From sequence record PV660463: a stretch of 64,000 bases of DNA; one strand, written 5' to 3'. This DNA is from Escherichia phage LF82-41. Numbering within the stretch: position 1 is the stretch's first letter; every line of letters starts with the position of its first letter. The notes under the pieces were generated by a model, which ran no database searches, was not told the origin of the DNA, and worked only from the letters and a program-made list of their open reading frames with translations. Shown piece by piece: positions 17,732 to 24,210 of the stretch. The position numbers and the translations under genes are program-made.

Positions 17732-18039
17732 CGTAAAGTCCCTGCAATTGGAATACTAACAATACGGCCTGTGTCCAGGATTCGTTGATACAATCTTTGC
17801 GTCTCCGCATCTAGTTTAACGTGTTTCATTTCAAGCTTATTAAACCAGAACTTACGCGGAGTTTCGACCATTCTTAGAACTCCCATTTTTAAATCTGTTT
17901 TATACTGTGTTTTCAAAGTATCGAAAACTTTATCTGCAATATCCTTTCTAAAAAATACTGCAGGACGATGCTCATCAAGTGGAACCGGGACAGTAAATCC
18001 TTCCATATCTCGATAAACTATTGCATATACATAAACCAT
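17728..18039 (-). CDS. hypothetical protein (103 aa), dda.1 position
   Basis: ORF track; 4-nt overlap with dda. Confidence 0.5.
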   Translation of the reverse strand: MVYVYAIVYRDMEGFTVPVPLDEHRPAVFFRKDIADKVFDTLKTQYKTDLKMGVLRMVETPRKFWFNKLEMKHVKLDAETQRLYQRILDTGRIVSIPIAGTLR

Positions 18040-21757: not shown

Positions 21758-21994
21758 TTAACCACTTACTGGTGTAGGGGTAAACATTGCAGCGTTCTTA
21801 GTTTTCCAAGTTGCTGCATCAGAAACGACATCAGAATAAGCTGCCTTTTCTGATGGAAAGATTTGGTAATGGGAATCTGCAATCCGATGTTCGTTTGAAT
21901 AAATCTCAAACGGCACAGAAACTTCCATACCTTTAACTTCTTTGCCTTCACCAGCAGGATGCGTAAAGGTTTTGATGTTTACATAACCACCCAT
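21758..21994 (-). CDS. soc: small outer capsid protein Soc
   Basis: 78 aa; GYVNIKTF...HYQ.FPSEKAAYS matches remembered T4 Soc. Confidence 0.8.
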   Translation of the reverse strand: MGGYVNIKTFTHPAGEGKEVKGMEVSVPFEIYSNEHRIADSHYQIFPSEKAAYSDVVSDAATWKTKNAAMFTPTPVSG

Positions 21995-21996
21995 AA

Positions 21997-22317
21997 TTAA
22001 CTCCTTTGTTGTTTAATTACAGGTGTATTTATAATGAATTTCTTCGGGACAATAAAATATCCGAATTTAGCTAATATAACAACATCACCGTTAATTATTA
22101 CCGGAGAATAATCATCTGGAGTATTAAATTTCCAGTGGAGTCTAGTATTATATCCATCAGAGCCGAATGCTTTATTAGCCGGTCTCCCGGCTTTTTGCCA
22201 TGCATAAAAATCAAGTTTCATTTGCAACCCAATCAACCATATGTAGATGGTCTGATAATTGACTAACATGCTGAAGCTGATTAGACAGGAGCTTACAAAT
22301 AAGCTCACTGTTATCAT
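21997..22317 (-). CDS. hypothetical protein (start uncertain)
   Basis: ORF track; contains soc late promoter in its 3' part. Confidence 0.35.
   Translation of the reverse strand: MITVSLFVSSCLISFSMLVNYQTIYIWLIGLQMKLDFYAWQKAGRPANKAFGSDGYNTRLHWKFNTPDDYSPVIINGDVVILAKFGYFIVPKKFIINTPVIKQQRS
22027..22034 (-). promoter_or_regulatory. late promoter TATAAATA upstream of soc
   Basis: minus-strand TATAAATA about 30 nt upstream of soc ATG. Confidence 0.5.
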
Positions 22318-22383: not shown

Positions 22384-22905
22384 TTAATAACCTCGGTCTT
22401 GACGTGCGAAGTTTTCAGCATTTTTCAGGTAATACAGTTTAAAGATTTCTTCTGCAGTAAGTCCAAGGCCTTGGAACATATTCAGAACAAAGTGGAGGAT
22501 ATCAATCATCTCAAATTTAATTTCAAGCTGGTCTTCAGGAGACAGTTCATCGATACGACGATTTCGATATTCAGCATGGTGTGCTTTCCATGGCTTCCAT
22601 ACAGAGCTAGCGGCTTTTTCACCGTTGGACATACCACCAAGTGAAGTCAGCAGTTCACGGAATTCATCATCAATATAATCTTTCTGATTACGCAGCCAAT
22701 CAACAACATCACCGGCAGTAGCCAATTCATCAGGATGTTTGTTATGTTCAGGCTTGTCATTTGCCAGACGAACCTGTAAAGATTTCTGCATATCAAGCAT
22801 TACCTGCAGTGGGTCTTTATCTTCGTGAATCAGAGCATTAAAATAAGCTTCTTCTGCTTTATCAACACCAGAAATAAGTTGTGAACATTCGTTAAAGTGT
22901 GCCAT
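22384..22905 (-). CDS. 56: dCTP pyrophosphatase (dCTPase, MazG-like)
   Basis: about 173 aa from Met at 22905; T4 gp56 size and position between soc and 61. Confidence 0.8.
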   Translation of the reverse strand: MAHFNECSQLISGVDKAEEAYFNALIHEDKDPLQVMLDMQKSLQVRLANDKPEHNKHPDELATAGDVVDWLRNQKDYIDDEFRELLTSLGGMSNGEKAASSVWKPWKAHHAEYRNRRIDELSPEDQLEIKFEMIDILHFVLNMFQGLGLTAEEIFKLYYLKNAENFARQDRGY

Positions 22906-22993
22906 TATTTTTCCTTTCAATTCAGTATAAGAGAGTTAATTCTAACATTAATTTTATAAAGCGTAATAAATAATAGGTAACTAAGGAGATATT

Positions 22994-23191
22994 ATGTTTA
23001 AACTTCCATCGTTAATCAACGCTATTAAAGGCAATAAAAAGAAAACTGCTATCGCTGCAATAGTTGTAGGTGGCATTATTTCATGGAACTTCGGGATTGC
23101 ACCATTGTTAGTTGCTAATGGTATTATAGTTCCTTCTGTTCCATTGGATACTGTAGTTGATTTGGCCTTTGCTATTATAGGGCTTGTTTAA
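22994..23191 (+). CDS. small hydrophobic protein on plus strand (65 aa)
   Basis: AAGGAG RBS 5 nt before ATG; hydrophobic IAAIVVGGIISWNFGIAPLLVANGIIV; sits in the 61-56 intergenic gap. Confidence 0.4.
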   Translation: MFKLPSLINAIKGNKKKTAIAAIVVGGIISWNFGIAPLLVANGIIVPSVPLDTVVDLAFAIIGLV

Positions 23192-24210
23192 ATCTTCGAA
23201 TAACGAGATAATCTCATTTTAGCATGCAACCCACTTGAAATATTCTGTTTCATATATTCTAAAATTTCTTGTGGTGTTGCATTTTCTTTCATTACCATAT
23301 CATTCACATCCTTTGATCTCCATGGACTTCGGTCCCAGAACATGACACGTTCGCCTGCATCAACTAATCGCTTCATGCGAGCTATAGTATCCGGATGCCT
23401 AGGTTCATTATCCATTACCCATACCCGACGTTCTTTAAATGGTACCACATCTAAATCTATTGAGCCGCCTGTAATAGCGATTGCATTGGGTATGAATAAA
23501 CTATCAATAGGGCCTTCCATTACCCAGACGTCCCCTTCCTTAACACGTTCAACACCATAAATTTTTGTTGCAGACTCAAACGCTTTAATAGTGATATATT
23601 TCTGAGGAGCATCTTTACGAAGTGCACGTCCTTGGAATGACTCGGCCTTCCCATCTTTATTAAAAATAGGAATCACTAAACGCGGTTCAGGAATCTCTTT
23701 CTTATACGTACCAGGTTGAATCTTGTTGACCAATTTAGGCCATTCTAATGTGAACCATAATCTGTTCCATGATTCTTTAGGAATACACCGAGACTTAACA
23801 TATTTCACAATAGGATGCTCTTCAGGCAGCTTGTCCAGACGAGAACAAGACGGCAAAGAATTTATAGTCTTTTTCTCTGGGGCAGGCTTAGCTTCAGGAA
23901 CCTTTTCAATCTTTGGTTCCATTCTAGCTTTTTCTTTACGAACTTCCATTAGATATTCGCGATAAAGCTCTTCATCATACTCTTTTAAGTATCCGGAAAT
24001 TGTATTATGATATTGACAGTTATAGCAATGCACATTACCTGGAGTACCGCCATAATACCATCCACGAGCTTTCATTGCATCTGTCTGGGAGTCGCCACAA
24101 ACTGGACATCGAAATGTTAATTTAAATGTGCTTGAATTATTGATTTGTCTAAAACGAGGTAGGTGAGAAAACGCACGATAAGCAAATTCATTATCTATCC
24201 ATTCAGCCAT
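23188..24210 (-). CDS. 61: DNA primase
   Basis: 340 aa; N-terminal zinc ribbon CPVCGDS...CYNC; T4 gp61 size and synteny. Confidence 0.9.
   Translation of the reverse strand: MAEWIDNEFAYRAFSHLPRFRQINNSSTFKLTFRCPVCGDSQTDAMKARGWYYGGTPGNVHCYNCQYHNTISGYLKEYDEELYREYLMEVRKEKARMEPKIEKVPEAKPAPEKKTINSLPSCSRLDKLPEEHPIVKYVKSRCIPKESWNRLWFTLEWPKLVNKIQPGTYKKEIPEPRLVIPIFNKDGKAESFQGRALRKDAPQKYITIKAFESATKIYGVERVKEGDVWVMEGPIDSLFIPNAIAITGGSIDLDVVPFKERRVWVMDNEPRHPDTIARMKRLVDAGERVMFWDRSPWRSKDVNDMVMKENATPQEILEYMKQNISSGLHAKMRLSRYSKI

What the first reader, a model, noticed from the sequence alone, without database searches (positions are those of the whole stretch)
22994..23191. Plus-strand small membrane-protein ORF with strong Shine-Dalgarno in a minus-strand gene block
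A 65-aa hydrophobic ORF preceded by AAGGAG at ideal spacing lies between the end of gene 61 and the start of gene 56, antisense to the surrounding operon. Opposite-strand small genes are rare in this region and could encode an exclusion or lysis-timing factor.
Basis: seen in the sequence. Interest (0 to 1): 0.45.

Follow-up and report, generated by a model that had tools for sequence, protein, structure and literature searches.

The report
Conserved late small membrane-protein gene
The flagged ORF is a real small membrane-protein gene, already catalogued as a hypothetical protein, that T4-like enterobacterial phages keep between their dCTPase and primase genes and probably switch on late; its function is unknown and the T4 reference annotation omits it.

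Summary
ORF 22994..23191 (+) encodes 65 aa, has AAGGAG five nt before a unique ATG, and lies between gene 56 (dCTPase) and gene 61 (primase), overlapping the gene 61 stop by 4 nt.

It is a genuine gene. It matches PHROG 2024 over its full length (function unknown; RB69ORF029w). Substitutions are codon-periodic, with dN/dS of about 0.1-0.3. It sits in the same slot and orientation in at least 10 T4-like genera.

In RB69 it is the only plus-strand CDS in about 66 kb. T4 early and middle transcription all runs the other way. All 12 lineages examined carry a late-promoter box, (N)ATAAATA or ATTAAATA, 19-40 nt upstream. The box is a perfect TATAAATA in Bp7 and Marfa and AATAAATA here, the commonest T4 variant. 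It is therefore most likely a late, gp55-dependent gene.

The product is predicted to have a charged N-terminus in the cytoplasm, one TM helix, and a short acidic amphipathic periplasmic tail. The invariant residues (W-N, P, G, LP, D/E) cluster in the outer half. It shows no similarity to holins, Imm, RI or Ac.

"Lysis-timing or exclusion factor" remains a guess. Late expression argues against an Imm/Sp-type early factor. The gene is already catalogued as hypothetical, although it is unannotated in the T4 reference.

The parts
22965..22972 (+). Late-promoter-like box AATAAATA (T4 late consensus TATAAATA with A at -13). The inferred transcription start is about 22978, giving a leader of about 16 nt that includes the SD.
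   Evidence: Sequence. ATAAATA occurs only 3 times on the + strand of the 64-kb window. All 12 lineages have [AT]TAAATA at -19..-40 from the ATG, against a background of 0.24 per strand-kb and P of about 0.008 per 40 nt. Review PMC2988020 reports 9 of 50 T4 late promoters with A(-13). The TSS position is inferred, not measured.
22983..22988 (+). Shine-Dalgarno AAGGAG, 5 nt before the ATG.
   Evidence: It is the only + strand AAGGAG-N4-8-ATG in the window. AGGAGG or AAGGAGG is conserved in all lineages.
22994..23191 (+). CDS of the 65-aa small membrane protein (phrog_2024; orthologue of RB69ORF029w).
22994..23044 (+). Residues 1-17: Lys-rich amphipathic N-terminus with 4-5 K/R and no acidic residues, predicted cytoplasmic. 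Its sequence is poorly conserved across genera; only its charged character is kept.
   Evidence: (helix 3-11). Topology is inferred from the positive-inside rule.
23045..23116 (+). Residues 18-41: the transmembrane helix, carrying invariant W31-N32 and P37 and near-invariant A41.
   Evidence: Kyte-Doolittle 19-residue window maxima are 1.9-2.6. AF2 predicts helix 15-41 with pLDDT of about 88-90.
23117..23188 (+). Residues 42-65: x-G turn, a Pro-containing loop (invariant G43; L/V-P47), a conserved acidic residue (D52) and a short amphipathic helix (51-64). This part is predicted periplasmic or interfacial.
   Evidence: In distant orthologues only about 14 residues follow the acidic position, which is too short for a second TM. 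This is inferred.
23188..23191 (.). 4-nt convergent overlap (TTAA) of the small ORF's stop with the gene 61 stop.
   Evidence: The same overlap occurs in T4, S16, Moon and Marfa.
22939..22963 (-). Context: MotA-type middle-promoter-like element for gene 56, made of a CGCTTTA box (22963-22957), a 12-bp spacer and a TAGAAT -10 (22944-22939). It lies back-to-back with the small gene's late box.
   Evidence: The consensus (a/t)3TGCTTtA placed 12+/-1 bp from TAtaaT comes from PMC2988021. The box is TGCTTCA in CJ20 and L016 and TGCTTTA in L009. This is a consensus match only.
22384..22905 (-). Context: gene 56 (dCTPase / NTP pyrophosphohydrolase), divergent from the small gene.
23188..24210 (-). Context: gene 61 (DNA primase), convergent with the small gene.

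Best explanation
This is a genuine, monocistronic late gene of T4-like enterobacterial phages. After DNA replication starts, gp55-RNA polymerase initiates at the variant late box AATAAATA (22965-22972), about 16 nt upstream of the ATG. A strong SD drives translation of a 65-aa protein.

The protein inserts in the inner membrane with its Lys-rich N-terminus in the cytoplasm. It has one TM helix and a short acidic amphipathic tail at the periplasmic face. The invariant residues (W-N and P inside the helix, then G, L-P and D/E just outside it) sit in the outer half of the molecule, while the cytoplasmic N-terminus is free to vary. The protein therefore most likely works by binding another membrane or periplasmic component, or itself, through the Asn/Pro-containing helix, and acts on the envelope late in infection. 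Modulation of lysis or lysis inhibition, or late protection against superinfection, are the most plausible roles.

Shown here: the gene is real and under purifying selection, its position is conserved, the late-box is conserved, and the hydrophobic helix is present.
Inferred: late timing, membrane topology and partner binding.
Guessed: the biological role.

My component confidences are: real gene about 0.95, membrane protein about 0.9, late expression about 0.8, envelope/lysis-type role about 0.35.
For: Coding:
- Full-length match to phrog_2024, E = 1.4e-26.
- tblastn finds 692 phage records.
- Substitutions by codon position are 31/12/40 for window vs T4. dN/dS is 0.11 (vs T4), 0.28 (vs CJ20) and 0.09-0.15 for close pairs.
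- Synonymous sites are saturated, yet the frame, length and start are kept.

Synteny:
- The gene is on the + strand between 56 (or dam in T4) and 61 in Mosigvirus, Tequatrovirus, Gaprivervirus, Jiaodavirus, Gelderlandvirus, Moonvirus, Kanagawavirus, Dhakavirus, Marfavirus and two metagenomic lineages.
- All of these score as phrog_2024.

Late expression:
- It is the only + strand CDS in about 66 kb of RB69.
- All 12 lineages have a late box 19-40 nt upstream. It is a perfect TATAAATA in Bp7 and Marfa. The A(-13) variant seen here occurs in 9 of 50 T4 late promoters.
- ATAAATA occurs only 3 times on the window's + strand.
- A strong hairpin or terminator follows the ORF in CJ20, L020, L016 and JD18, consistent with a self-contained transcription unit.

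Protein:
- One hydrophobic segment with KD19 of 1.9-2.6.
- AF2 pLDDT of 85, with helices 3-11, 15-41 and 51-64.
- The invariant W, N, P and G positions and the charge distribution are shown in the 12-lineage alignment.
Against: - No transcript, ribosome-footprint or peptide evidence could be reached. The TSS table of the T4 dRNA-seq preprint is not held.
- Most lineages, including the window, T4 and CJ20, lack the first T of the late box, so the promoter may be weak.
- In several lineages the box abuts or overlaps the MotA box or the -10 of the divergent gene 56 promoter. Part of its conservation could come from that.
- No terminator follows the ORF in the window or in T4.
- The TM helix of the window protein is only marginally hydrophobic on the Hessa scale (+3 kcal/mol by simple sum).
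- The curated T4 annotation never included the gene.
- Two T4 lab-derived genomes carry frameshifted copies. This means either the gene is dispensable or the sequences contain errors.
- Nothing tests the function.
Confidence: 0.6

Rival explanations
1. It is a holin or pinholin-like protein, as one UniProt entry for a homologue (vB_EcoM_OE5505) is labelled. It would accumulate in the membrane late and form holes.
For: It is small, probably late, and has one TM helix with Gly/Ala-rich stretches. The 'Holin' label appears on P0066 / A0A482MZV5.
Against: The label is a submitter or automatic annotation. The four papers that mention the phage are isolation or diversity studies by title and abstract, and I did not open them. 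No holin model in Pfam or NCBIfam matches at E<=1. The C-terminus is hydrophobic and acidic rather than the charged hydrophilic tail typical of holins. The gene is not next to an endolysin or spanin gene. These phages already have holin T (RB69 t).
Confidence: 0.06
2. It is an Imm/Sp-type superinfection-exclusion factor made early, which blocks DNA entry or the gp5 lysozyme of secondary phages.
For: It is a small inner-membrane protein in a phage family known for membrane exclusion proteins. imm and sp lie only about 2.5-3 kb away in RB69.
Against: There is no profile similarity to Imm (hhalign probability 0.6%). It lies on the strand that carries no early or middle transcription in T4 (PMC2988020). 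It has a late box and not an early or middle promoter.
Confidence: 0.1
3. The ORF is a by-product. What is conserved is minus-strand function (the 3' UTR of gene 61, the gene 56 middle promoter or oriA region), or a late antisense RNA that silences primase or dCTPase expression.
For: The ORF is fully antisense to the 61-to-56 read-through region. Without a terminator in the window and T4, its transcript would run antisense into gene 61. A MotA-type promoter abuts it.
Against: Codon-periodic substitution and dN/dS well below 1 hold even where synonymous sites are saturated. Amino-acid motifs are kept at 30-50% identity across genera while the DNA is unalignable. The SD and ATG are conserved everywhere. 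Lineages with a terminator hairpin, or an extra gene between the ORF and 61, would not make antisense RNA to gene 61. An RNA role could at most be additional.
Confidence: 0.05
4. It is a type-I-toxin-like small hydrophobic peptide. Its mRNA would be held in check by the complementary early/middle read-through transcript and would damage the membrane when expressed.
For: Its size and hydrophobicity fit, and it is fully complementary to the transcripts that cross the 61-56 junction.
Against: It has a late promoter and a strong unmasked SD. It is conserved as a single-copy syntenic gene of a lytic phage with a specific polar motif (WN..P..G..P..D/E), not merely a hydrophobic stretch. No toxin family matches.
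Confidence: 0.05
5. It is a late membrane anchor or chaperone for particle assembly, for example in prohead initiation at the inner membrane.
For: Late timing and membrane location fit.
Against: The cytoplasmic N-terminus, which would have to contact assembling particles, is the least conserved part. Conservation is concentrated in the outer half of the helix and the periplasmic tail. The gene is absent from RB49, which assembles the same kind of head.
Confidence: 0.08

Closest known systems
RB69ORF029w / PHROG family phrog_2024 (hypothetical proteins of T4-like phages; S16 gp16.1, JD18 gp010, Moon gp035, Marfa gp028, Bp7 gp130)
   Same: It is the same family. The HMM match is full-length (E = 1.4e-26), identity to RB69ORF029w is 97%, and the position and orientation between genes 56 and 61 are the same.
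   Different: Nothing differs. The family itself has no assigned function and no solved structure.
T4 late genes embedded in early regions (for example soc, driven by a TATAAATA box)
   Same: A late-promoter box lies close upstream, the leader is short and the SD is strong. soc, 1 kb away in the window, has a perfect TATAAATA at 22026-22033 on the minus strand.
   Different: This gene is on the opposite strand to everything around it. In most lineages its box lacks the first T.
T4 holin T and antiholin RI (lysis timing and lysis inhibition)
   Same: These are late-acting inner-membrane proteins with N-in/C-out topology that work through periplasm-proximal contacts. This comparison rests on established knowledge, not on a test made here.
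   Different: No sequence or profile similarity to RI was found, and holin T was not compared here. The periplasmic part is only about 24 residues rather than a folded domain. The gene is not in the t or rI neighbourhood.
T4 Imm and Sp (superinfection exclusion) and Ac (small membrane protein)
   Same: They are small phage-encoded inner-membrane or periplasmic proteins of the same phages.
   Different: Those genes lie on the early strand, and there is no similarity to Imm or Ac. Sp was not compared.

Membership tests
phrog_2024 / RB69ORF029w family | Full-length match to the family profile | tested here: met
   E = 1.4e-26, covering residues 1-65 of a 65-position profile. Orthologues from 8 other lineages also match.
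phrog_2024 / RB69ORF029w family | Conserved position: plus strand, between gene 56 (or dam) and gene 61, convergent with 61 | tested here: met
phrog_2024 / RB69ORF029w family | Signature W-N-[FYL]-x4-P-x-A-x3-G-x3-P-x4-[DE] after a basic cluster | tested here: met
   12-lineage alignment and 22-sequence alignment.
T4-type late genes (gp55-dependent) | TATAAATA-type box about 6 nt upstream of the transcription start, with no -35 element | tested here: met
   AATAAATA at 22965-22972. This variant is found at 9 of 50 T4 late promoters. It is present in 12 of 12 lineages and is a perfect TATAAATA in two of them.
T4-type late genes (gp55-dependent) | Transcript appears only after replication onset and depends on gp55, gp33 and gp45 | not testable with these tools
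   A T4 dRNA-seq data set exists (150 phage TSS, 22 of them antisense), but its table is not held.
Holins | At least one TM domain in a small late protein | tested here: met
Holins | Charged, hydrophilic C-terminal cytoplasmic tail | tested here: not met
   The C-terminus is hydrophobic, with only 1-2 acidic residues and 0-1 basic residues. The charged part is N-terminal.
Holins | Match to a holin family model, or location in a lysis cassette next to the endolysin or spanin | tested here: not met
   No Pfam or NCBIfam hit at E<=1. The neighbours are dCTPase and primase. Holin t is encoded elsewhere.
Holins | Forms lethal membrane lesions on expression | not testable with these tools
   Needs an experiment.
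Imm/Sp superinfection-exclusion proteins | Homology to Imm or Sp | tested here: not met
   hhalign against RB69 Imm gives probability 0.6%. Sp was not compared directly. No Pfam T4_Spackle hit.
Imm/Sp superinfection-exclusion proteins | Early expression from the early/middle strand | tested here: not met
   The gene is on the opposite strand and has a late box. No plus-strand sigma-70-like promoter was found within 1 kb upstream of the ORF.
Antiholin RI / SAR-domain proteins | Homology to RI, or a releasable weakly hydrophobic signal-anchor plus a periplasmic domain | tested here: not met
   hhalign against RB69 RI gives probability 0.3%. There is no periplasmic domain. The marginal hydrophobicity of the helix is a lead only.
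Type I toxin peptides | Small hydrophobic peptide whose mRNA is controlled by an overlapping antisense RNA and is toxic on expression | tested here: inconclusive
   Size and complementarity to read-through transcripts fit. Control and toxicity are not testable here.

The most novel reading that the evidence does not exclude
The T4 reference annotation has overlooked a late inner-membrane protein that is conserved in at least 10 genera of T4-like enterobacterial phages (most of them Tevenvirinae). It would be a missing component of late envelope control: a partner of holin T, antiholin RI or the spanins that tunes lysis or lysis inhibition, or a late-acting exclusion factor. It would act through the invariant Asn/Pro-containing outer half of its TM helix.
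Probability: 0.25. Interest if true: 0.6.

Novelty: already known. Interest (0 to 1): 0.35.

Why it matters
T4 is one of the best-studied viruses, yet its curated reference genome leaves the dam-61 gap empty. A 66-aa gene sits there that is conserved in at least 10 T4-like genera, is under purifying selection, and is the only gene pointing the 'late' way in about 66 kb of early genes. The ORF is not new, because automatic pipelines and the RB69 record already list it as hypothetical. What this analysis adds is comparative evidence for late expression, a topology model and the conserved motif. Together these make a cheap, well-defined knockout and fusion experiment in T4 worthwhile. If the protein turns out to take part in lysis timing, lysis inhibition or late exclusion, it would add a component to a classical system.

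Tried and rejected
- Word-indexed protein search with the single sequence found only 7 close relatives. With an alignment it found 74 hits, all T-even.
- The full HMM scan of 1.84 billion representatives found only 7 hits. Three were distant and proved to be syntenic orthologues. No host or non-phage relatives were found; the 'bacterial' hits are phage-sized contigs.
- Pfam, NCBIfam and the PDB sequence search gave nothing.
- The BFVD fold search returned only family members. I did not run PDB or AFDB fold searches, because a 65-aa helical model gives meaningless matches.
- hhalign against RB69 Imm, RI and Ac showed no relation.
- Literature: 'RB69ORF029w' gave 0 papers. Searches for T4 ribosome profiling, unannotated ORFs or TSS found no study of this ORF. 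The four OE5505 papers are isolation or diversity studies by title and abstract, and I did not open them to check the 'Holin' label. Miller et al. 2003 is not held. The dRNA-seq TSS table of the T4 NAD-cap preprint is not held.
- A perfect plus-strand TATAAATA does not occur anywhere in the window.
- The sigma-70 promoter and terminator scan found nothing on the plus strand near the ORF.
- No hairpin follows the ORF in the window or in T4 (z = -0.6 and -0.2).
- I rejected the idea that the ORF is a chance antisense frame, on the evidence.

Full report
OBSERVATION. The window is a Mosigvirus (RB69-like T-even phage). It is 97-98% identical to phages LH01, DCP548 and SHSML-52-1 across this region.
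- The plus-strand ORF runs from ATG 22994 to TAA 23189-23191 and encodes 65 aa.
- AAGGAG lies at 22983-22988, five nt before the ATG. An in-frame TAA at 22982-22984 leaves no alternative start.
- The ORF fills the gap between the start of gene 56 (dCTPase, 22384..22905, minus) and the end of gene 61 (primase, 23188..24210, minus). It overlaps the gene 61 stop by four bases.
- ORF length alone means little here, because several antisense 'shadow' ORFs of 60-81 aa lie nearby. However, this is the only plus-strand AAGGAG-N4-8-ATG in all 64 kb.

IT IS A REAL GENE.
- The protein matches PHROG family phrog_2024 end to end (E = 1.4e-26, function unknown).
- tblastn finds it in 692 phage records. Identity is above 93% in Mosigvirus, where RB69 annotates it as RB69ORF029w, and about 50-54% in Tequatrovirus.
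- Between the window and T4, differences by codon position are 31/12/40. Nei-Gojobori dN/dS is 0.11. It is 0.28 against the Gaprivervirus CJ20 and 0.09-0.15 for close pairs within genera.
- For the distant pairs synonymous sites are saturated, so those ratios are rough. Still, the periodicity, the kept frame, length and start, and the close-pair values all indicate purifying selection on a protein.

DISTRIBUTION AND SYNTENY.
- A profile scan of 1.84 billion representative proteins found only seven hits.
- The three distant ones (E about 1e-4) share W-N-[FY]...P.A..HG...P...E. Two were looked up, and both lie on the plus strand between the dCTPase and primase genes of other T4-like phages.
- tblastn with two of these sequences, and the annotated records, extend the family to Jiaodavirus (JD18), Gelderlandvirus (S16 gp16.1), Moonvirus, Kanagawavirus (PEi20), Dhakavirus (Bp7), Marfavirus and, by tblastn only, Enterobacter phages. 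There is a reciprocal weak hit back to the Mosigvirus ORF.
- All score as phrog_2024.
- The four-base stop overlap with gene 61 recurs in T4, S16, Moon and Marfa.
- RB49 (Krischvirus) lacks the gene; its genes 56 and 61 are 14 bp apart.
- In T4 the homologue is a 66-aa ORF at 17738..17938 (+) in the 309-bp dam-61 gap. Both the curated records (NC_000866, AF158101) leave it unannotated, while a pharokka-annotated T4 lists it.

EXPRESSION.
- In RB69 this is the only plus-strand CDS between asiA (159.9 kb) and rI.1 (58.7 kb), about 66 kb and more than 125 genes.
[quoted passage not shown] It lists 50 late promoters: 32 perfect TATAAATA, nine with A at -13, and the rest single deviations or a TA-to-AT change (PMC2988020).
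- The window has AATAAATA at 22965-22972, with its first base 29 nt before the ATG (21 nt separate the box from the ATG). ATAAATA occurs only three times on the plus strand of the window.
- In all 12 lineages examined an [AT]TAAATA box lies 19-40 nt upstream of the ATG. It is a perfect TATAAATA in Bp7 and Marfa; AATAAATA, GATAAATA or CATAAATA in most others; and ATTAAATA in S16 and Moon. The background is 0.24 per strand-kb, about 0.008 per 40-nt stretch. The lineages are related, so this is not 12 independent trials. But the surrounding DNA is largely unalignable and the box shifts relative to the SD.
- I infer a gp55-dependent start near 22978 and a leader of about 16 nt.
- Strong hairpins follow the ORF in CJ20 (z = -4.75), in L020 (z = -4.0, followed by T6), in L016 and in JD18. 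None follows in the window or T4, where the late transcript would run antisense into gene 61.
- On the other strand a MotA-type middle-promoter-like element for gene 56 (CGCTTTA, 12 bp, TAGAAT; 22963-22939) sits back-to-back with the late box. In some lineages the two overlap, which could account for part of the box's conservation. In T4, where dam intervenes, I saw no MotA-type box next to GATAAATA.

THE PROTEIN.
- There is one clear hydrophobic segment, at residues about 18-41 (Kyte-Doolittle 19-window 1.9-2.6), preceded by a basic N-terminus.
- AlphaFold2 with a 19-sequence alignment gives pLDDT 85 with helices 3-11, 15-41 and 51-64.
- Across 12 lineages the N-terminus keeps only its charge. 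The invariant or near-invariant positions (W31, N32, P37, A41, G43, L/V-P47, D/E52, G63) lie in the outer half of the helix and the tail.
- In distant orthologues only about 14 residues follow the acidic position, too few for a second span.
- I therefore infer N-in, one TM, and a short periplasmic or interfacial amphipathic tail. The conserved Asn and Pro inside the helix suggest helix-helix contact with a partner or self-association. These points are inference, not measurement.

FUNCTION AND RIVALS.
- No Pfam, NCBIfam or PDB relative exists.
- Profile comparison with RB69 Imm, RI and Ac is negative.
- Fold search in BFVD returns only family members, one of which carries a 'Holin' label. The four papers that mention that phage are isolation or diversity studies by title and abstract; I did not open them.
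- The holin reading fails on the C-terminal tail, on gene neighbourhood and on model matches.
- An early Imm/Sp-type role is disfavoured by strand and promoter type.
- A purely RNA-level or by-product explanation is contradicted by the codon-level selection.
- The most economical reading is a late inner-membrane protein acting on the periplasm-proximal side of the envelope. The specific role (lysis timing or inhibition, late exclusion, other) is unresolved.
- Frameshifted copies in two T4 lab derivatives hint at dispensability but may be sequencing errors.

NOVELTY.
- The ORF is already catalogued: RB69ORF029w, phrog_2024, and 'hypothetical protein' or 'putative transmembrane protein' in hundreds of records.
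- This analysis adds its spread across at least 10 T4-like genera, the comparative case for a late promoter, the topology and motif model, and the point that the T4 and PEi20 reference annotations omit it.
- Interest is modest. It is a tidy, testable gap in T4 annotation and not a new kind of system.

Noticed in passing
L002 4739..4939 (+) = T4 NC_000866 17738..17938: The curated T4 reference genomes (NC_000866, AF158101) leave the 309-bp dam-61 gap unannotated. It holds a 66-aa orthologue of this gene with AAGGAGG and GATAAATA upstream. A pharokka-annotated T4 (OZ209057) does call it.
   Followed up: yes
L027 695..880 (+) (Edwardsiella phage PEi20, NC_028683): The PEi20 reference record also leaves its copy unannotated. 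The copy is 61 aa and has CATAAATA 22 nt upstream.
   Followed up: partly
window 22939-22963 (-): A MotA-type middle-promoter-like element for gene 56 (CGCTTTA, 12 bp, TAGAAT) lies back-to-back with the small gene's late box. Better MotA boxes (TGCTTCA, TGCTTTA) occupy the same place in CJ20, L016 and L009. In T4 the oriA primer promoter is annotated at gene 56.
   Followed up: partly
window 22026-22033 (-): A perfect late box TATAAATA lies just upstream of soc (21758..21994, minus). It is one of only three perfect boxes in the window, all on the minus strand.
   Followed up: no
L003 2757-2790; L020 6201-6229; L023 1383-1398; L016 5594-5615: Strong GC-rich hairpins, two of them with UUCG loops, lie between the convergent small gene and gene 61 in Gaprivervirus, Jiaodavirus and two metagenomic lineages. 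They are absent where the two stops overlap (window, T4, S16, Moon, Marfa).
   Followed up: partly
P0075 (hit): This is a 61-aa T4-type copy. Every difference I compared with T4 fits a C-to-T change at the DNA level (A>V, T>I, S>F, P>L, H>Y, R>C). It looks like an assembly of bisulfite-converted or deaminated T4 spike-in DNA, not a natural variant.
   Followed up: no
L032 1411-1608 (T4_ev240) and L033 594-790 (T4_583L): Two T4 lab derivatives carry frameshifted copies of the small gene. One has a 1-nt loss in AATAAGAAACG. The other has a 2-nt loss plus a 4-nt loss in the SD-ATG spacer. Either the gene is dispensable in the laboratory or these are sequencing errors.
   Followed up: partly
L034 1009-1024 (RB49): In RB49 (Krischvirus) genes 56 and 61 are only 14 bp apart, with no small gene between them.
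   Followed up: no
L028 872..1526 (Bp7); L020 6204..6578: Extra genes are inserted between the small gene and gene 61 in some lineages: a homing endonuclease in Bp7 and a 124-aa ORF in L020. T4 instead has dam between the small gene and gene 56. The junction appears to be an insertion hotspot, yet the small gene is retained.
   Followed up: no
window 21997..22317 (-): The ORF just upstream of soc begins with a very hydrophobic stretch. Phage 55 annotates its shorter version as a 'putative transmembrane protein'. This is another small membrane protein of unknown function in the neighbourhood.
   Followed up: no
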